A stretch of 19,664 nucleotides of DNA from a virus. A program made the position numbers and the translations under genes. Below, one piece after another: positions 5,567 to 16,644 of the stretch. The first letter of the stretch is position 1, and the number at the start of each line of letters is the position of its first letter. The DNA lies in UHGV virus genome UHGV-0301534, one strand, 5' to 3'. The notes beneath the pieces are model-generated. The model was not told the origin of the DNA. It was given only the letters and a program-made list of their open reading frames with translations, and did no database searches.

Positions 5567-6861
5567 TGGCATTAAATGAAGGTCAACTGGTCACGTATGC
5601 TCTGGATGAAATCATCGAAACCGTCCAGAACCTGACGCCAATGGCGTCCAAAGTGACAAAATACACCCCTCCGGCAGAATCCATGCAGCGTTCAAGCAAC
5701 ACCGTGTGGATGCCTGTTGAGCAGGAAGCGCCAACCCAGACTGGCTGGGATTTAACTGGCAACGCAACCGGGATTCTGGAACTCTCCGTGAAATGCAACA
5801 TGGGCGATCCGGATAACGATTTTTTCGAGCTTCGTGCAGATGACCTGCGTGATGAGCGTTCTTACCGTCGCCGCATCCAGGCATCCGCCAAAAAACTGGC
5901 GAATAACATTGAGTCAGCGATTGCTAAACAGGCAACTGAAATGGGCTCGCTTGTTGTTCACGATACCCGCGCAATTGGTCCATCTACTGGCCTGTCTGGC
6001 TGGGATTTTGTGTCTGATGCAGAGCGCCTGATGTTCTCCCGTGAGCTAAACCGCGATATGGGCATCAGTTACTTCCTGAACCCTGACGATTACCGCAAAG
6101 CAGGCCGCAACCTGGTAGATGGTGACATCTTTGGGCGCGTTCCTGAAGAAGCGTATCGCAACGGTACTATTCAGCGTCAGATTGCTGGCTTTGATGAAAT
6201 TCTTCGCTCACCGAAACTTCCGGCAGTTACCAAGTCAACCGCTACTGGTGTAACTGTGTCTGGTGCGCAGAAGTTTAAGCCGCAGGCATACACCCTTGAT
6301 ACCGATGGTAACAAAGAGAACGTTGACAACCGTGTTGCAACGGTGACCGTATCCTCCACCACCGGGTTTAAGCGCGGCGACAAAATCAGCTTCACTGGTG
6401 TGAAATTCCTGTCTCAGATGGCGAAGAACGTGCTAACTGATGACGCGACTTTCTCAATCACCCGTGTGATCGATGGTACTCACATCGAAATCACGCCGAA
6501 ACCGATTGCACTGGATGACGCGTCACTGACAAAAGAAGAGAAGGCTTACGCTAACGTAAACACCTCTCTTGCTAATGCCACTCCGGTAAACGTTCTGAAC
6601 GTGGCAACAACCACCGCTAACGTGTTTTGGGCTGATGACTCAATCCGTCTGCTGTCTCAGCCGATCCCGGTAACCCATGAACTGTTTGCTGGCATGAAAA
6701 CGTCTTCCTTCAGCATTCCTAGTATTGGTGTTAACGGCATCTTCGCAACGCAGGGTGATATCAACACTCTGTCTGGTAAGTGCCGTATTGCTGTGTGGTA
6801 TTCAGCATGTGCTGTACGACCAGAGGCAATTGGTGTTGGTCTGCCTAACCAGACTGCGTGA
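5566..6861 (+). CDS. 5: major capsid (coat) protein (P22 gp5-like), 431 aa
   Basis: ATGA-type overlap with the scaffold stop; [10 protein letters not shown]...[14 protein letters not shown] matches recalled P22 coat protein. Confidence 0.95.
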
Positions 6862-11151: not shown

Positions 11152-12567
11152 ATGGCTACGTGGCAACAGGGTATTAATTCTGGTGGTTTTCTGGCTGGCA
11201 TCGGTACGCAAAATGAGAATGCGCCAAAGGCAAGCGACATTAACGCAACGCTTGGTCTGATCCGCGAAAACAATGAACTGGCTCGCTCAGGTGCAAATAA
11301 CGTTGGCCTGACCGCGTTACGTGGTCTGGCTGGAGTTGCTGATATTTACAATCAGGAACAGCAACAGAAAGCTATTAGTGCGTTCAATAAGGTTCACGCT
11401 GATGCATGGGCTTCTGGTGATCCATCGGGACTATTTAAGTTTGCCCAGGAAAATCCAGCGTTTGTTGCACAGGCACAACAGGCGTTTTCCGGTCTTAATG
11501 ATCAGCAACGCAACGATATGGGCGATTTAGCCATGAGGGCTAACGTCGCTCTTTCTCAGGGACCGGAAGCCTACAGTAAATTCATTACTGACAACAAGGA
11601 CAGGTTAAATCGCGTTGGTGCTAATGCTGACTGGATGATTCAGACAGGTATCCAGAATCCAGAGCAGCTATCACACATGCTGACTACTATGTCTCTCGGT
11701 GCACTTGGTCCAGAAAAGGCGTTTGCTGTTCAGGACAAGATGGCTGGTCGTGAAATTGACCGAGGCAGGCTGGCAGAGACAATCCGCAGCAATCAGGCAG
11801 GAGAAGCACTTCAGGCGAGAGGGCAAAACCTTTCCTATCAGTCAGCAATGACTGGGCACAATATCGCAGCACAACGCTTAGCTCTGGATCAGCAAGAGTT
11901 CGGGTTTAAGATGCAGCAAGCGCAGGAAAAGGCTCAGCAGTTGATTAGCGAAGCACCTAAGCTGTCAGTAAACATGGAAAAAGGCATCGAGACGGCTGTA
12001 AACAATGCTACAGCATCATCAAACTCAGCCAATTCTATGAGTGCGCTTGCTCAACAGTTCAGAGCAGAAAAACCAACGACAGGTTTGTTCGGTAACGCAC
12101 AGAACATGTTCGCAAAACTTACCGGAAGCGATACAACATTGCGTGATTTGCGCATTCGCCAAAATGCCCTTGTTAACAGTCAGGTTCTTAAATTCCTACC
12201 TCCCGGCCCAGCAACGGATAAAGACGTTGAGATCGTTCGACAGGGTGCGCCAACTGACATGGATAACCCTGAGACGGTCGCAAGATGGCTTGATGCAATG
12301 GCAAACCTTGAGCGACGAAACGCGCAGTTTAATGAGTTTAAAGCCGAGTGGATGAGCGCGAATGGCAACCCTGGACAATCGCGTAATGGCGGTCAGATAT
12401 TGGGGTTGGATGTTAAAAAAGGTGAATCATTGGGGAGTGCCGTTAAGCGGTATATGTCAATGAATACTGACGCAGCGCCAGCACAAGATTCGACACCTTC
12501 AGGAGAACCACGGAATCAGGTTGGATCATATACCTCAAAATCAGGCATTCAATTTACGGTGGAATGA
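11152..12567 (+). CDS. 20: ejection protein, P22 gp20-like, 471 aa
   Basis: Synteny and length match P22 gp20. Confidence 0.88.
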
Positions 12568-14405
12568 TGAAAGTAACTGCAAACGGTAAGACATTTACCT
12601 TTCCTGATGGTACGAGCACCGAAGATATTGGCACCGCCATTGATGAGTATTTTGCTGGTCAGGCTGTTCAGCAACAAACAGTTAATCAGGCCAATAATGC
12701 ACCAACACGGGAAGAACCATCATTGATGCAACAAGCTGGTGATTGGCTCACAGGTGGTCAAAGTGCAGGGCAAATTGCAGAACAGGCTGGTCGTGGTCTG
12801 GTAAACATACCATTTGACGTATTGCAGGGTGGCGCAAGTCTGATTAATGCAATCAGCCAGGGGCTTGGCGGCCCCAAGGTTTTGGATGATGTTTATCGCC
12901 CTGTCGAGCGACCGACAGACCCTTATGCGCAAGCTGGAGAAACAATTGGCGGGTATTTAGTTCCAGGAGTTGGAACGGCAGGAAGCATGGCTATTGGATC
13001 ACTGGCAGAGGCCGCAAATCAGAAAGGCGATTTCGCACAAAATGCAGCTAAAAATGCCGGAGTTAACCTTGCCGCTCAGGGTGTTCTTTCCGCAGCAGCA
13101 AAGGGAATAGGGCGTGGAATAACGGCTATAAAAGGTGATATTGCGCCAGAAGTGGCGAAGAAAATTGCCACATCAGAATCGATGGGCGTGACACCAATGA
13201 CATCTGATGTTATCCCGCCGAAAAATGCTTTCACTCGCGGACTTACTCAGGATGCTGAGGGGGCTTTGCTCGGGACAGGCTCAAAGCGAGCTGAGCAATA
13301 TGCAACGCGTAGTAAGCTGGTAAGCAATTATTTTGACCGTTTTGGTGAGTACAACCCTGATGATGTGGTGAAGTCTCTTACCACCACGTTAAGGGGGCGG
13401 AAGGATGCCGCTGGCGCTGTTATCAATGACGTCACCAATAAAATGGGTAATGCCGCAGTTGATACCACAAATACCATGAATGCTCTGAATACAGCGATCG
13501 CAAGACAGGAACGGCTTGGGACGTCTGCCAATCAAAGCCTGCTTACATCCTTGCGTAACCTGCGTGAAGAATTAGCAAACCCTGCAACTGATTTGGATGT
13601 TACGTTTGATCTCTTGCGTCAGCACAGAACAGCATTTAGATCTAATGTTCAGGGAGATGCTATGGTCTTCCCCAACCAGGCAAAAGCAGCTACCAATATG
13701 GTAGAGAATGCAATGTCAAAAGACCTTCGTAACGCAGTTGCAAAAAACCTCGGTGCGTCAGACGCAGCAAAATACCTTAAAGCAAATTCCGATTATGCAA
13801 ACGTTTATAATAAGGTGCTTAATAAAAACATTGCTAACAAGCTCAACAAGGCAAGCAGTGAAGCCAGTCCTGAACTTATAAATACTGTTGTATTAAGCAG
13901 AAAACCATCTGACGTGAAACGAATCTGGAGCGCATTGGATGATAAAGGGAAAGATGCTATGCGTGCAGCTTACGTCAGCAAAATAGCGGAAAAGGCCGGG
14001 GACTCTCCAGCCAAGTTCATCACTGAAGTTAATAAGCTGAAATCTCAGTCAGGCGGTGAAATTTACAACACTATTTTTTCTGGAAAGCACATGAAAGAGC
14101 TTGATGCTCTTCATGAAGTTCTACAGCAAACAGCAAGGTCAGACACCGCAAATGTAGTAACTCAGACTGGGCAATCACAAGCCAACAGGATAAGGACGAT
14201 TGGCGCAACTGCGACTCTTGGCGTATCAATGGGGATTGAGGCTGGTTTCGGTGCAATGATGCGCTTGTATGAGTCCAAAGCAGCAAGGAATGCGCTCTTA
14301 CGTCTGGCAAACACCAAAGCAGGAACACCAGCCTATGAAAGAGCGTTGAGTAACGCAGCAAATGCCATCAGGCCGCTGCTTGCTACTGAGGCAACACAGC
14401 AGTAA
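12564..14405 (+). CDS. 16: ejection protein, P22 gp16-like, 613 aa
   Basis: ATGA overlap with the gene 20 stop; synteny and length close to P22 gp16. Confidence 0.88.
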
Positions 14406-14429: not shown

Positions 14430-14819
14430 TTAACATTTTCTTTTTACTTTTCCAACAAAAGCTTTGGTTGAATCCATATTCCCATAACCAGAAATGGTTT
14501 TCGACATTAAAACTGTTCCATTAGGATGTATTACCCATGAGTCGATAACTCGTTGAGTTTCGCCATTCGCGCCGATTCCAATGATGGAGTTTTTAGACAA
14601 TGCTTTGTAAGCCATGCCGCCCGCATCCGTCCCAGAATATGTGATACTGGCATCTTCACCGTTTGTCTTAATGATGAATGTTCCACTAAAACCATCTTCT
14701 TCCGGTTGAAAATTATTTCGTTCTGAATAGCTTATTCCGTGCATATCCCCAACGACCCAGCACTCTGCTGAGACAGAAAACGAGAAGACAAGGAAAGCCA
14801 TTGCTATAATCAATTTCAT
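14430..14819 (-). CDS. exported protein of unknown function, 129 aa, with signal peptide and two Cys in the mature part (one next to the predicted cleavage site, one as the last residue)
   Basis: N-terminus MKLIIAMAFLVFSFSVSA-ECW is a typical Sec signal with AxA-like cleavage site; AAGGG RBS 7 nt upstream on the - strand; mature part rich in G/S/T/I/V; occupies the position of P22 sieA. Confidence 0.7.
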   Translation of the reverse strand: MKLIIAMAFLVFSFSVSAECWVVGDMHGISYSERNNFQPEEDGFSGTFIIKTNGEDASITYSGTDAGGMAYKALSKNSIIGIGANGETQRVIDSWVIHPNGTVLMSKTISGYGNMDSTKAFVGKVKRKC

Positions 14820-14834
14820 TTTAAGCCCTTATTG

Positions 14835-15170
14835 TTATTGATTCTTTTTGCACGGAAATGTTTTTCCTACTGCTAGGGCGGTTAGTATAACTGCGCTCTC
14901 ATTTCTTGATTCTGGGTTTTTGTTTAGATATTTCTCAACGATATCGGTGTATTGATACATGTCAACGCCATCAGGAGGACATAGAGAACCAATTAGTATC
15001 AATGAGTCAGTTACTCCGCGCAAATATCCAGTAATGTAAAGCGATGAAAAATCATCACCCTTTTTACCTTGTTGAATGTTGTAAAGAAGGTCATTACCCG
15101 TTTGAAGCTCGCGCAGCTCAGCACTGGAAGAAGAGACAACTGCTAACAAGAACAGTGATAGAAATCTCAT
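14835..15170 (-). CDS. exported protein of unknown function, 111 aa, with signal peptide and two Cys in the mature part
   Basis: N-terminus MRFLSLFLLAVVSSSSA-ELRE is a Sec signal; start codon overlaps the mnt stop (ATGA on the - strand, 15167-15170) with AAGGA 6 nt upstream, so translation is coupled to mnt. Confidence 0.7.
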   Translation of the reverse strand: MRFLSLFLLAVVSSSSAELRELQTGNDLLYNIQQGKKGDDFSSLYITGYLRGVTDSLILIGSLCPPDGVDMYQYTDIVEKYLNKNPESRNESAVILTALAVGKTFPCKKNQ

Positions 15171-15421
15171 TTCAAATCCTTTTCATAAATCTTTTTAAGT
15201 GTCTCAAACACTATAGCCTTGAACTGCTCAGCCTGCTGATCAGCCAAGCGTTCAGCTTCGTCGCGATATCCTGTAATCGGTGATGGTTTTGATAGTGCAT
15301 CCTGAACGATTTGTAATAACTCAGAGTTCATTGACCTTCCGTTAGCCTCGGCTCTTAATTTCAATTTTTCTCTTACTTCCAAAGGCATACGGAAGTTAAA
15401 GTGCGGATCATCTCTAGCCAT
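15167..15421 (-). CDS. mnt: Mnt repressor (ribbon-helix-helix), 84 aa
   Basis: Product MARDDPHFNFRMPLEVREKLKLRAEANGRSMNSELLQIVQDALSKPSP... matches recalled P22 Mnt; the ORF-track 207-aa version is an upstream extension running antisense through arc/ant. Confidence 0.9.
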   Translation of the reverse strand: MARDDPHFNFRMPLEVREKLKLRAEANGRSMNSELLQIVQDALSKPSPITGYRDEAERLADQQAEQFKAIVFETLKKIYEKDLK

Positions 15422-15443
15422 GCCATCACTCCAAGTTAGTGTA

Positions 15444-15472
15444 TTGACATGATAGAAGCACTCTACTATATT
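15444..15472 (+). promoter_or_regulatory. Pant promoter (-35 TTGACA 15444-15449, -10 TATATT 15467-15472) with the overlapping Arc operator (ATGATAGAAGCACTCTACTAT)
   Basis: Sequence matches the P22 Pant/Oarc region as recalled; TAGA...TCTA half-sites between -35 and -10; directly upstream of arc. Confidence 0.7.
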
Positions 15473-15477
15473 CTCAA

Positions 15478-15496
15478 TAGGTCCACGGTGGACCCA
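15478..15496. promoter_or_regulatory. Mnt operator (Omnt)
   Basis: Perfect palindrome GGTCCAC-G-GTGGACC at 15480-15494, matching the P22 mnt operator core. Confidence 0.75.
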
Positions 15497-15511
15497 TATT
15501 GTGAGGTGAAT

Positions 15512-15673
15512 ATGAAAGGAATGAGCAAGATGCCGCAGTTCAATTTGCGGTGGCCTAAAGAAGTATTGGATTTGGTCCGCAAGGTGGCGGAAGAGAATGG
15601 TCGGTCTGTTAACTCTGAGATTTATCAGAGAGTAATGGAAAGCTTTAAGAAGGAAGGGCGCATTGGCGCGTAA
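15512..15673 (+). CDS. arc: Arc repressor (ribbon-helix-helix), 53 aa
   Basis: [53 protein letters not shown], near-identical to recalled P22 Arc; GAGGTG RBS at 15503-15508. Confidence 0.93.
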
Positions 15674-15741
15674 AGTTGAAGCCCCAACTGCGGGAACAGT
15701 CAGGGCTTCGGTTGTCAGTAAATCCGTGGAGAAAAACCAAC

Positions 15742-16644
15742 ATGAATAGTATAGCAATTTTAGAAGCAGTGAACACCTCTTACGTACCATTCAACGGTCA
15801 GCAAATTATCACCGCCATGGCTGCCGGAGTTGCATATGTTGCGATGAAGCCAATCGTTGAAAACCTTGGAATGAGCTGGTCAACGCAGCAAACAAAACTC
15901 ATGAAGCAGATTAGCAAATTCAACTGTGTTCATATGAACATGGTTGCCGCTGATGGGAAGCTTCGTAAGTTACTCTGCCTTCCTTTGAAGAAGTTAAATG
16001 GGTGGCTGTTCAGCATCAACCCTGAGAAAGTTCGTGCTGACATCCGCGATAAACTGATTCAGTACCAGGAAGAATGCTTTACTGTGCTGCATGACTACTG
16101 GACAAAGGGAAAGGCAGAAAATGCACGTAAGAAAACATCTGTTGATGACAGGACTCCGCTTCGTGATGCTGTAAATATGCTGGTCAGCAAAAAGCATCTA
16201 ATGTACCCAGAAGCTTATGCAATGATTCATCAGCGTTTCAATGTGGAAAGTATTGAAGAGCTTGATGCATCTCAGATACCGCAAGCCGTAGAGTACATCC
16301 ACAGGGTAGTGCTTGAAGGTGAGTTCATTGGCAAACAAGAGAAGAAAACCAACGAGCTTTCTGCAAAAGAAGCAAACAGCCTTGTATGGTTATGGGATTA
16401 TGCCAACCGTTCACAGGCATTATTCCGCGAACTGTATCCGGCATTAAAACAAATTCAATCGAACTATTCCGGCAGATGTCATGACTGCGGTTATGAGTTC
16501 TCCCGTATTATCGATATAGCGAGAGACGTTTTAATTAATCACACACGAGATGTTGATATCAATGAGCCAGACGGACCAACGAATCTTTCCGCATGGATGA
16601 GACTTAAGAATAAAGAATTACCTCCTTCAGTACATAATTACTGA
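15742..16644 (+). CDS. ant: antirepressor Ant, 300 aa
   Basis: From the internal ATG at 15742 (GGAG upstream) the product begins [37 protein letters not shown] as in P22 Ant; length 300 aa; the 15676 start is a spurious extension. Confidence 0.9.

What the first reader, a model, noticed from the sequence alone, without database searches (positions are those of the whole stretch)
14430..14819. 129-aa exported protein with probable beta-rich fold and an N-to-C terminal cysteine pair
The mature protein starts with Cys two residues after the predicted cleavage site (SVSA-EC...) and ends with Cys as the last residue (...KRKC), suggesting a disulfide that staples the two termini together. The cysteine is not in a lipobox context (no L-[AS]-[GA]-C), so it is probably soluble periplasmic rather than a Cor/Llp-type lipoprotein. 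The sequence (alternating hydrophobic and polar residues, many G/T/S) suggests a beta-sandwich or barrel. Function is unknown; as partner of the upstream gene it could be the effector or receptor-masking component.
Basis: inference. Interest (0 to 1): 0.55.

Follow-up and report, generated by a model that had tools for sequence, protein, structure and literature searches.

The report
Exported Hex-family protein in prophage
This is a real gene for a small protein exported to the periplasm, a distant relative of phage 434's Hex protein, sitting where phage P22 keeps its superinfection-exclusion gene sieA, so it probably helps the prophage's host keep other phages out.

Summary
Window 14430-14819 (minus strand) encodes a 129-aa protein with a Sec-type signal peptide (…SVSA|EC…) and exactly two cysteines, at mature position 2 and at the last residue. 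Both are invariant across 84 diverse homologues.

It is a divergent member (27-29% identity; hhalign 99.75%, E 3e-27) of the uncurated phage 434 Hex / Sf6 gp38 family (PHROG 2651). This family has no Pfam, NCBIfam or PADLOC match and no solved structure. AlphaFold2 (pLDDT 89) predicts a small all-beta meander barrel with no specific structural relative.

The gene lies exactly in P22's sieA slot, convergent with ejection-protein gene 16, and is the last gene of a mnt-rap1a-hexL operon.

The upstream "partner" is a Rap1a/Tai4 type VI immunity homologue, present in only 14 of 80 related loci, so the two genes are independent cargo.

434 Hex is genetically a "heterologous exclusion" factor against P22. 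The published active fragment (sHex) starts exactly at the signal-peptidase site I predict, which suggests Hex proteins act in the periplasm rather than on RecA/repressor.

Best reading (about 0.5): a prophage-expressed periplasmic superinfection-exclusion protein. Its mechanism and target are untested. It is a new variant of a poorly understood known kind.

The parts
14430..14819 (-). hexL: CDS for a 129-aa Hex-family exported protein. The stop codon is 14430-14432, signal-peptide codons are 14766-14819 (aa 1-18) and the mature protein is 14433-14765 (aa 19-129, with Cys20 and Cys129).
   Evidence: The ORF and its sequence are. It matches PHROG 2651 at E 2e-60. hhalign to the 434 Hex subfamily gives 99.75%, E 3e-27. 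The AF2 model has pLDDT 89.
14826..14830 (-). AAGGG Shine-Dalgarno-like sequence, 6 nt upstream of the hexL ATG, in the 15-nt spacer after the rap1a stop codon.
   Evidence: Read directly from the minus-strand sequence.
14835..15170 (-). Upstream gene in the same operon: a 111-aa Rap1a/Tai4-family (type VI amidase immunity) homologue with its own signal peptide. It is independent cargo, not an obligate partner.
   Evidence: Pfam PF18602 matches at E 9.7e-15, 55.3 bits against a 27.7-bit cut-off, covering the full profile. RefSeq names it 'Rap1a/Tai family immunity protein'. It is present in only 14 of 80 hexL loci.
15167..15421 (-). mnt: the Mnt repressor gene (84 aa), first gene of the operon. 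Its TGA stop overlaps the rap1a ATG (ATGA).
   Evidence: It is 81.5% identical to P22 Mnt. RefSeq annotates it as an Arc-family protein.
15449..15477 (-). Pmnt-like sigma-70 promoter (TTGAGA-17-TATCAT). It is the likely promoter of the mnt-rap1a-hexL transcript and is divergent from and overlapping a Pant-like promoter (15444-15472, + strand).
   Evidence: Found by the consensus scan. The arrangement matches the annotated P22 Pmnt/Pant pair. Function is inferred.
12564..14405 (+). Gene 16 homologue (ejection / DNA-transfer protein), convergent with hexL. Its stop codon lies 24 nt from the hexL stop. This defines the sieA slot.
   Evidence: The ORF is. RefSeq calls it 'DNA transfer protein'. 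A relative's locus carries PF26808 Phage_P22_gp16. In P22 the sieA stop lies 22 nt after the gene 16 stop. In 79 of 80 hexL loci a gene 16 homologue lies downstream on the opposite strand, in most only about 30 nt from hexL.

Best explanation
Window 14430-14819 (minus strand) is a functional moron gene of a P22-like E. coli prophage.

Product. It is made with an 18-residue Sec signal peptide and cleaved after Ala18. It folds in the periplasm into a soluble ~12-kDa up-and-down beta-barrel. The first and last strands are tied together by a Cys20-Cys129 disulfide.

Family. It is a divergent member of the phage 434 Hex / Sf6 gp38 family.

Expression. It is transcribed in the lysogen as the last gene of the mnt-rap1a-hexL operon, in the exact genomic slot where P22 carries sieA.

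Most likely role. It acts as a single-protein, envelope-level superinfection-exclusion factor. It would bind a periplasm-exposed component of an incoming (probably P22-like) phage's DNA-delivery machinery, or the host structure that machinery needs, so that adsorption occurs but the genome does not reach the cytoplasm.

What is shown here: the gene, its family membership, the signal peptide and Cys pattern, the predicted fold, the operon layout and the slot.
What is inferred: export and the disulfide (strong inference), expression in the lysogen (by analogy with P22 Pmnt), and the exclusion function and its periplasmic mechanism (by homology to Hex and by position).
For: (1) Family membership.
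- tblastn to 434/Sf6/HK633/HK446/Sf101 is full length, E 3e-7.
- A profile-profile comparison of the window subfamily with the Hex subfamily gives 99.75%, E 3e-27 over 129 columns.
- PHROG 2651 matches at E 2e-60.
- Independent AF2 models of the window protein (pLDDT 89) and of 434-type Hex (pLDDT 85) have the same layout: a signal helix followed by nine strands.

(2) Export.
- The signal peptide has a -3/-1 V-x-A site.
- 123 of 126 relatives have a hydrophobic leader and none has a lipobox.
- The Cys pair is invariant. Many relatives (69 of 126) have an extra internal Cys pair.
- The mature protein is hydrophilic, GRAVY -0.35.

(3) Independent experimental hint.
- The 'sHex' fragment recovered by Shkilnyj et al. 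starts at Glu43 of their 158-aa ORF (PMC3564112).
- That is residue 19 of the 134-aa protein, the first residue after the predicted signal-peptidase site TSANS|ECW.
- Their full-length protein was lethal when overexpressed.

(4) Function of the homologue.
- hex was named for heterologous exclusion of P22 by lambda imm434 lysogens of Salmonella, and the phenotype was lost in hex- (PMC3564112).

(5) Slot.
- The hexL stop lies 24 nt after the gene 16 stop, convergent. P22 sieA lies 22 nt after it.
- sieA-type genes sit between genes 16 and 9, and only 22 of 66 P22-like phages have one (PMC10883804).
- No P22-type SieA is found in the window or in 80 hexL loci.

(6) Expression with lysogeny repressors is a family-wide pattern.
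- The gene follows cI with a 4-nt overlap in 434, Sf6, Huey and in Klebsiella and Yersinia prophages.
- It follows an S24-type repressor in some P22-like contigs.
- It follows Mnt in the window and in L006.

(7) It works alone.
- The upstream neighbour varies or is absent.
- A distant member is a single-gene integron cassette.
Against: - Only one family member has ever been studied, and it is 27-29% identical to the window protein. Target specificity need not be conserved.
- The stage at which Hex excludes P22 is not known.
- The only biochemical paper assigns Hex a cytoplasmic role: blocking RecA-stimulated repressor cleavage, with partial in-vivo complementation by leaderless sHex (PMC3564112).
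- Some relatives lie outside phages: a lone chromosomal gene between the atp and met genes (L105), an integron cassette (L103) and island edges in Aeromonas. This would also fit a general periplasmic protective or binding role.
- The neighbouring Rap1a gene points to interbacterial competition rather than phage defence.
- PADLOC has no match.
- Export, the disulfide and expression were not measured.
Confidence: 0.5

Rival explanations
1. Periplasmic immunity or inhibitor protein against envelope-acting enzymes of competitors (type VI effectors, colicins, lysozymes or other cell-wall hydrolases). With the adjacent Rap1a homologue it would form a small prophage-borne 'orphan immunity' cassette. 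Exclusion of P22 by 434 Hex would then be a side effect, for example inhibition of a virion-associated wall hydrolase.
For: - The gene immediately upstream in the same operon is a Rap1a/Tai4-family immunity homologue.
- The protein is small, periplasmic and disulfide-bonded, as many immunity proteins and lysozyme inhibitors are.
- Relatives occur as integron cassettes, at island edges and as a lone chromosomal gene.
Against: - Rap1a accompanies the gene in only 14 of 80 loci.
- No effector gene is nearby in any locus examined.
- None of 84 members matches MliC/PliC or any immunity Pfam family at E <= 0.01.
- The structural resemblance to PhiA is weaker than to unrelated generic barrels.
- The strongest recurring association is with phage repressor genes and the sieA slot.
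Confidence: 0.2
2. Cytoplasmic 'repressor protection protein', as published for 434 Hex: it binds the prophage repressor and prevents RecA-stimulated autocleavage, lowering spontaneous induction.
For: From PMC3564112:
- hex::cat lysogens induce 30-fold more often, in a recA-dependent way.
- sHex blocks cleavage of the 434 and P22 repressors in vitro.
- sHex expressed from a plasmid complements about 7-fold.

- Family genes are very often translationally coupled to cI-type repressor genes.
- The GenBank record of phage 434 uses this name.
Against: - The paper never considered a signal peptide: zero mentions of signal, membrane or periplasm.
- All family members carry a signal peptide plus conserved disulfide cysteines. 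That is not expected of a cytoplasmic regulator.
- sHex starts exactly at the predicted signal-peptidase site. It contains only strands 1-5 of 9 and lacks the C-terminal Cys. It was purified through guanidine, so it is unlikely to be a native fold.
- In the window the gene is linked to Mnt, a ribbon-helix-helix repressor with no S24 autocleavage domain, and not to cI.
- The hex- allele is a cat cassette with its own promoter and terminator placed right after (or overlapping) cI. Polar or cis effects on cI were not excluded.
Confidence: 0.05
3. Lysogenic-conversion factor that benefits the host in another way: a calycin-like periplasmic binder of a small hydrophobic ligand, metal or envelope component (stress or serum resistance, nutrient capture), unrelated to phage or toxin defence.
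For: - The fold is of the class used by lipocalins, fatty-acid-binding proteins, avidins, nitrobindins and neisserial surface-lipoprotein barrels.
- One member is a lone chromosomal gene.
- The gene has low GC like other morons: 0.40 against 0.48 for the window.
Against: - Similarities are at the level of generic topology only: Foldseek E >= 5e-3 with TM 0.3-0.46.
- The only genetic phenotype in the family is phage exclusion (PMC3564112).
- The gene is persistently placed in classical exclusion-gene slots (after cI; the sieA slot).
Confidence: 0.15
4. Two-component system with the upstream gene: the 111-aa and 129-aa exported proteins act together, one as sensor or anchor and the other as effector or receptor mask.
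For: - The two genes are separated by only 15 nt and lie in one operon.
- Both products have signal peptides.
- They are co-inherited at >= 98% identity in 14 viral contigs, and the whole 1-kb cassette is present in 24 E. coli genomes.
Against: - 66 of 80 loci with the 129-aa gene lack the 111-aa gene.
- Emek, L006 and all 434/Sf6-type loci lack it.
- The 111-aa protein belongs to a family that acts on its own as an amidase immunity protein (Pfam PF18602).
Confidence: 0.05

Closest known systems
Phage 434 Hex (= Sf6 gp38, HK633/HK446/Sf101 homologues; PHROG 2651; GenBank name 'repressor protection protein')
   Same: - True homologue: hhalign 99.75%, E 3e-27, full length.
- Same size, signal peptide, 'ECW[VI]V' mature N-terminus and C-terminal Cys.
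- Same predicted nine-strand barrel.
- Prophage gene co-transcribed with a lysogeny repressor.
- Hex is genetically a phage-exclusion gene (PMC3564112).
   Different: - Only 27-29% identical.
- It sits in the immI/sieA slot behind mnt (here with a Rap1a gene in between), not behind cI in immC.
- It ends exactly at the Cys (…KRKC) rather than …GTCNQ.
- No phenotype has been measured.
- My analysis disputes the cytoplasmic mechanism published for Hex.
P22 SieA (superinfection exclusion A)
   Same: - Same genomic slot: convergent with gene 16, 22-24 nt from its stop, between genes 16 and 9 (PMC10883804).
- Expressed from the prophage.
- Acts, or is proposed to act, at the envelope on DNA delivery by P22-like phages.
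   Different: - SieA is a 162-164-aa inner-membrane protein with three predicted transmembrane helices and no signal sequence (PMC10883804).
- HexL is a soluble exported beta-barrel.
- There is no sequence similarity.
Cor / T5 Llp lipoprotein exclusion proteins
   Same: Small phage-encoded exported proteins that block infection at the envelope (my own knowledge of these families).
   Different: - Those are lipoproteins that inactivate the outer-membrane receptor FhuA.
- HexL and all 126 relatives lack a lipobox.
- P22-like phages use O-antigen rather than a protein receptor.
HXS periplasmic defence effector HxsA
   Same: A precedent for a periplasmic protein that stops phage DNA entry (PMC13128918).
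   Different: - HXS is a four-gene bacterial system that needs radical-SAM maturation and a peptidoglycan-binding effector.
- HexL is a single unmodified small barrel.
- There is no homology.
Rap1a/Tai4 and other periplasmic type VI immunity proteins; MliC/PliC lysozyme inhibitors
   Same: - Small, Sec-exported, disulfide-containing periplasmic proteins carried as mobile single genes.
- A Rap1a homologue is the immediate neighbour.
   Different: - No sequence match to any such family among 84 members.
- No effector gene nearby.
- The structural similarity is no better than to unrelated barrels.

Membership tests
Hex family (phage 434 Hex / Sf6 gp38; PHROG 2651) | Significant full-length sequence homology to 434 Hex / Sf6 gp38 | tested here: met
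   PHROG 2651 matches at E 2e-60. tblastn gives E 3e-7 over 100% of the query. hhalign gives 99.75%, E 3e-27.
Hex family (phage 434 Hex / Sf6 gp38; PHROG 2651) | Architecture: N-terminal hydrophobic leader, Cys-Trp at the start of the mature chain, Cys at or near the C-terminus, about 110-aa single domain | tested here: met
   Alignments A1, A2 and A5 show invariant C20, G28 and C129, with W95 conserved in at least 90% of sequences. W21 is invariant in the closer 35-sequence set. In more distant members it is replaced by Tyr, Phe or another residue.
Hex family (phage 434 Hex / Sf6 gp38; PHROG 2651) | Same fold | tested here: met
   AF2 models built from separate alignments give the same strand order. 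No experimental structure exists.
Hex family (phage 434 Hex / Sf6 gp38; PHROG 2651) | Co-transcription with a prophage maintenance repressor | tested here: met
   The sequence shows a Pmnt-like promoter, an mnt stop overlapping the rap1a start and a 15-nt spacer to hexL. Actual transcription was not measured.
Hex family (phage 434 Hex / Sf6 gp38; PHROG 2651) | Exclusion of a heterologous phage (P22) by the lysogen | not testable with these tools
   The phenotype is known only for 434 hex (PMC3564112).
Hex family (phage 434 Hex / Sf6 gp38; PHROG 2651) | Inhibition of RecA-stimulated repressor autocleavage | not testable with these tools
   This was claimed for the sHex fragment. It is topologically implausible for an exported protein.
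SieA (P22 superinfection exclusion A) | Inner-membrane protein with three or four transmembrane helices, homologous to SieA types A-C | tested here: not met
   There is no tblastn match to P22 SieA. The only hydrophobic stretch is the cleavable leader and the rest is a beta-barrel. Types B and C were not searched directly.
SieA (P22 superinfection exclusion A) | Location between genes 16 and 9, convergent with gene 16 | tested here: met
Cor/Llp-type exclusion lipoproteins | Lipobox L-[AS]-[GA]-C and lipid anchoring | tested here: not met
   The sequence is SVSA-E-C. None of 126 relatives has a lipobox-like motif.
Type VI immunity proteins (Rap1a/Tai4 and others) | Match to an immunity family model and/or an adjacent cognate effector | tested here: not met
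   The 129-aa protein and 84 relatives have no Pfam match. No effector gene is present in the loci examined. The neighbouring 111-aa gene does meet the Rap1a model.
MliC/PliC lysozyme inhibitors | Match to the family profile (PF09864) and its conserved loops | tested here: not met
Outer-membrane 8-stranded barrels (OmpX/OmpW/PagP; phage Huey's homologue is annotated 'PagP') | Membrane-spanning strands of about 10 or more residues, a C-terminal aromatic beta-signal, and a family profile match | tested here: not met

The most novel reading that the evidence does not exclude
Hex-family proteins are a previously unrecognised class of single-gene, soluble periplasmic, disulfide-stapled beta-barrel exclusion proteins. 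They jam the trans-periplasmic DNA-delivery conduit of incoming podoviruses (ejection proteins gp7/gp20/gp16). They are carried interchangeably in the cI-adjacent and sieA slots of lambdoid and P22-like prophages and even as integron cassettes. The published cytoplasmic RecA/repressor role of 434 Hex would then be an artefact of studying a leaderless half-barrel fragment.
Probability: 0.3. Interest if true: 0.7.

Novelty: new variant of a known kind. Interest (0 to 1): 0.5.

Why it matters
- The hex exclusion phenotype was described in 1980, and its mechanism is still unexplained beyond a single 2013 paper that places the protein in the cytoplasm.
- This family appears to be Sec-exported, disulfide-bonded and barrel-shaped, and a divergent member fills the sieA slot of P22-like prophages. 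That turns the question into a directly testable one: does a soluble periplasmic protein block assembly or function of the ejection-protein conduit?
- Two annotation problems come with it. RefSeq starts the gene at an internal Met, which hides the signal peptide. GenBank records for 434 propagate the name 'repressor protection protein'.
- The gene is present in about 3% of complete E. coli genomes (147 of 5426). The 434-type paralogue is in about 4% (207 of 5426). It is therefore a common but unnamed prophage cargo that may shape phage sensitivity of clinical and food isolates.
- The adjacent prophage-borne Rap1a/Tai4 homologue suggests that the same operon also protects lysogens from type VI amidase attack.

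Tried and rejected
Searches that found nothing:
- Pfam, NCBIfam and PADLOC on the protein: no match.
- Pfam on 84 relatives: only two stray single-member hits near E 0.005.
- PDB by sequence, single protein and profile: nothing below E 0.1.
- Accession and PHROG identifiers in the literature: no paper. Searches for later work on hex found only the 2013 paper. Two other papers matched 'hex' only as 'hexamer'.

Structure searches:
- Foldseek against PDB and BFVD: no hit at E <= 0.001, TM <= 0.5.
- The afdb50 library was not available.
- I could not read model coordinates. The Cys-Cys distance and the inside/outside residue pattern were therefore not measured.

Searches that gave little:
- The search for related loci with the diverse alignment failed because it had no conserved stretch.
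- The genome-contig scan returned only 3 loci.
- The third homologue search, with the profile, added almost nothing.

Ideas rejected:
- Lipoprotein: no lipobox.
- Outer-membrane barrel or PagP, as annotated in phage Huey: too short, no beta-signal, hydrophilic.
- SieA homologue: no similarity and no transmembrane helices.
- Obligate pair with the upstream gene: 14 of 80 loci only.
- The 207-aa ORF at 15167-15790 as a gene: only its last 84 codons are Mnt.

Weak signals not relied on:
- An internal promoter for hexL inside rap1a (14965-14938) is a 10/12 consensus match, but promoter-like sites are not enriched over shuffles (4 found against 2.9 +/- 1.9).
- No convincing terminator lies between hexL and gene 16.
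Full report
**1. The observation**

It encodes MKLIIAMAFLVFSFSVSA|ECWVV…KRKC, 129 aa.
- The N-terminus is a textbook Sec signal peptide: a basic n-region, a 12-residue hydrophobic core and V-S-A at -3/-1.
- The mature chain is 111 aa, 11.9 kDa, pI 6.1 and GRAVY -0.35. It has exactly two cysteines, at mature position 2 and at the very last residue.
- The Cys is preceded by Glu, so there is no lipobox.

This is a real gene. It matches PHROG 2651 at E 2e-60. It occurs in 147 of 5426 complete E. coli genomes and in at least 80 IMG/VR viral contigs.

**2. The start codon**

RefSeq annotates the gene as 104 aa from internal Met26 (WP_002432306.1). That deletes the signal peptide and the first cysteine. 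The longer start is correct for three reasons:
- Cys20 is invariant in 84 diverse homologues, and Trp21 is invariant among the 35 closer ones. Both lie upstream of Met26.
- An AAGGG Shine-Dalgarno sequence lies 6 nt before the ATG at 14819.
- The Emek orthologue has a different but equally hydrophobic leader.

**3. What family it belongs to**

Pfam, NCBIfam, PADLOC and PDB sequence searches are empty. tblastn against phage genomes finds two groups:
- 87% orthologues in Salmonella phages Emek and ST-35, at the same genomic position;
- full-length 29%-identical matches to Sf6 gene 38 and to the gene just downstream of cI in phages 434, HK633, HK446, Sf101 and Huey.

That second gene is hex of phage 434. 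A profile of the window subfamily against a profile of the Hex subfamily gives 99.75% probability, E 3e-27 over 129 columns.

An exhaustive profile search of 1.84 billion representatives finds only 188 clusters, all single-domain proteins of about 120-140 aa. Among 126 full-length representatives:
- 123 have a hydrophobic leader ending about 1-3 residues before a conserved Cys (median position 21);
- none has a lipobox;
- 118 have a Cys within the last 12 residues;
- 69 carry an extra internal Cys pair spaced 10 residues apart;
- four that have no Cys near the C-terminus each have a single new Cys 31 residues after the first.

This pattern is what a structural disulfide in an exported protein would produce.

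**4. Structure**

AlphaFold2 with a 35-sequence alignment gives pLDDT 89 and pTM 0.77. The model is a signal helix (residues 2-15) followed by nine beta-strands. An independent model of 434-type Hex from its own alignment has the same layout, pLDDT 85.
- Foldseek against PDB and BFVD gives nothing significant.
- The first strand starts at Cys20 and the last ends at residue 128, next to Cys129. In an antiparallel closed barrel these ends would be neighbours, so a Cys20-Cys129 staple that closes the barrel is the natural reading.
- A membrane barrel is unlikely. The mature chain is 111 aa, four of its strands are 5-6 residues long, there is no C-terminal aromatic residue, and the overall composition is hydrophilic.

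**5. Local context**

The window is the late region plus the immI region of a P22-like E. coli prophage. Gene order is gene 20 (11152-12567), gene 16 (12564-14405), then on the minus strand hexL, a 111-aa gene and mnt, then arc, the sar RNA, ant and the tailspike.
- A divergent promoter pair like P22's Pant/Pmnt lies at 15444-15477.
- The mnt stop overlaps the start of the 111-aa gene (ATGA), and 15 nt separate that gene from hexL. The three genes therefore look like one operon driven by the lysogen-active Pmnt. This is an inference by analogy with P22.
- The hexL stop lies 24 nt from the gene 16 stop, convergent. In P22, sieA occupies exactly this place, 22 nt from gene 16.
- Leavitt et al. 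report that sieA-type genes always lie between genes 16 and 9, and that only 22 of 66 P22-like phages have one (PMC10883804).
- No P22-type SieA is detectable in the window or in the 80 hexL loci.
- hexL, rap1a and mnt have about 40% GC, against 48% for the window.

**6. The supposed partner**

The 111-aa upstream protein is a Rap1a/Tai4-family type VI amidase-immunity homologue. Pfam PF18602 matches at E 1e-14, 55 bits against a 27.7-bit cut-off, over the full profile.
- Among 80 viral contigs with hexL, 79 keep a gene 16 homologue downstream on the opposite strand, in most cases only about 30 nt away. Only 14 have the Rap1a gene, all with the >= 99% hexL allele.
- Elsewhere the upstream space is empty or holds unrelated genes. 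Examples are a 149/150-aa unknown protein, a PIN-domain protein, Mnt-like proteins and, in L057, L072 and L082, an HTH+S24 cI-type repressor.
- Emek has hexL without Rap1a.

The two genes are therefore independent cargo that happen to share an operon here.

**7. Wider context of the family**

- The Hex subfamily is always fused by a 4-nt overlap to a 210-aa cI-type repressor. This holds in E. coli, Shigella, Klebsiella and Yersinia prophages.
- A 24%-identical relative follows a small gene that is divergent from a Cro/YdaS-like gene in a phage early region.
- Another relative lies next to terminase and portal genes.
- In Aeromonas the gene sits at the edge of integrase/resolvase islands.
- One four-cysteine member is a cassette in a chromosomal integron array, with 14 attC-like repeats.
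- One is a lone chromosomal gene between atp and met genes.

The common thread is a mobile single gene, most often wired to the repressor that is active in the lysogen.

**8. What is known about Hex, and a re-reading**

According to Shkilnyj, Colon and Koudelka (PMC3564112), hex was named by Susskind and Botstein for heterologous exclusion. Lambda imm434 lysogens of Salmonella exclude P22, and hex- lysogens do not.

The 2013 paper made these points:
- It modelled Hex as a 158-aa ORF overlapping the end of cI.
- Full-length Hex was lethal when overexpressed.
- A roughly 6-kDa fragment, 'sHex' (Glu43-Asn103), was recovered from an MBP fusion for unexplained reasons.
- sHex inhibited RecA-stimulated cleavage of the 434 and P22 repressors in vitro.
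- The paper does not mention a signal peptide, membrane or periplasm.

I translated the 158-aa ORF from the 434 record.
- Glu43 is residue 19 of the 134-aa protein, the first residue after the predicted signal-peptidase site TSANS|ECW.
- sHex ends just after strand 5 of 9 and lacks the C-terminal cysteine.
- Its N-terminus is therefore what leader peptidase would produce, and the fragment itself cannot be a native barrel.
- The hex- allele was a cat cassette with its own promoter and terminator replacing 'the Hex coding sequence'. If the replacement began at the 158-aa ORF's ATG, it would also have removed the last 25 codons of cI, because the ORF overlaps cI by 76 nt. The paper does not give the exact interval.

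These points do not disprove the RecA model. They do make a periplasmic site of action the better-supported one.

**9. Mechanism proposed**

- Shown: the gene, the family, the leader, the cysteines, the predicted barrel, the operon layout and the sieA slot.
- Strongly inferred: Sec export, cleavage after Ala18, a DsbA-made Cys20-Cys129 bond and expression in the lysogen.
- Inferred from homology and position (about 0.5): the protein is a stand-alone periplasmic superinfection-exclusion factor. It would interfere with DNA delivery by incoming, probably P22-like, phages, for example by binding the gp7/gp20/gp16 conduit, the needle or a wall-hydrolysing virion protein. This would be functionally parallel to inner-membrane SieA but structurally unrelated. 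A 2026 study of the HXS system shows that a periplasmic protein can arrest phage DNA entry (PMC13128918).

Rivals:
- a periplasmic immunity or inhibitor protein against type VI effectors or lysozymes, in keeping with the Rap1a neighbour and the integron and chromosomal relatives (0.2);
- another host-benefit ligand binder (0.15);
- the published cytoplasmic repressor-protection role (0.05);
- an obligate pair with Rap1a (0.05).

**10. Novelty and score**

The family is known only through 434 Hex and is absent from Pfam, NCBIfam and PADLOC. As far as the searched literature shows, three things have not been described: that the family is exported and disulfide-bonded, that it has a predicted barrel fold, and that a divergent branch occupies the sieA slot of P22-like prophages.

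I rate it a new variant of a known, poorly understood kind, with interest 0.5. It is not categorically new. It offers a concrete, cheap experimental route to an old unanswered question and a likely correction of a published mechanism and of database annotations.

Noticed in passing
window 14835-15170 (-): A Rap1a/Tai4-family type VI amidase-immunity homologue (111 aa, with its own signal peptide) is carried in the mnt operon of a P22-like prophage. This is a phage-borne 'orphan' immunity gene with no effector nearby. tblastn finds only 2 weak matches among 50,697 phage records. The whole 1-kb cassette is present in 24 of 5426 complete E. coli genomes.
   Followed up: partly
L005 5131-5445 (= window 14430-14744): RefSeq/PGAP starts this gene at internal Met26 (104 aa, WP_002432306.1), cutting off the signal peptide and the invariant Cys-Trp. 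Several database entries for the 434-type paralogue are truncated in the same way, at 101-113 aa.
   Followed up: yes
L002 2429-2905 (phage 434): The N-terminus of the published 'sHex' fragment (Glu43 of the 158-aa ORF) coincides with the predicted signal-peptidase cleavage site of Hex. The fragment ends after strand 5 of 9. The 158-aa ORF overlaps the last 76 nt of cI.
   Followed up: yes
window 14770-14819 and E. coli hits H77-H85: In most of the 147 E. coli genomes with this gene (124 match at 95-99% identity), the listed DNA matches start only at nt 50 of the gene. The Emek and ST-35 matches likewise stop near window 14770. A mosaic junction therefore lies inside the signal-peptide coding part, giving two alternative leaders on one mature protein.
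   Followed up: partly
L103 970-8059: A distant four-cysteine family member (P0115) is one cassette of a chromosomal integron array. There are 14 copies of an ~87-nt attC-like repeat (TAACAA…GTTAGGC), each separated by a single small ORF.
   Followed up: partly
P0107, P0222, P0228, P0234: These family members have no Cys near the C-terminus, and each has a single new Cys exactly 31 residues after the N-terminal one. This looks like a relocated disulfide partner.
   Followed up: partly
L057, L072, L082 (upstream of hexL at about 5001): In some P22-like contigs an HTH_3 + Peptidase_S24 (cI/LexA-type) repressor gene lies directly upstream of the window-type hexL. This repeats the cI-hex linkage seen in 434-type phages.
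   Followed up: partly
window 15674-15741 (-): The sar antisense RNA of the P22 immI region is present (Rfam RF00262, 95.6 bits, E 1e-20) between arc and ant.
   Followed up: yes
window 15167-15790 (-) and 15676-16644 (+): The 207-aa ORF in the mechanical ORF list is not a gene. Only its last 84 codons (15167-15421) are Mnt. The TTG start listed for Ant at 15676 lies within the sar match (15674-15741), so it is probably too far upstream.
   Followed up: partly
L004 2501-2905 (phage Huey): The 434-type Hex homologue of phage Huey is annotated as 'lipid A acylation protein PagP'. This is probably a mis-transfer from generic beta-barrel similarity, since no family member matches a PagP profile.
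   Followed up: partly
L008-L011 around 6001-6426 (Aeromonas): In Aeromonas the family gene sits at a variable island junction next to integrase or resolvase genes, with type I restriction, RadC and DUF2787 genes nearby. The site looks like a defence-island or hotspot.
   Followed up: no
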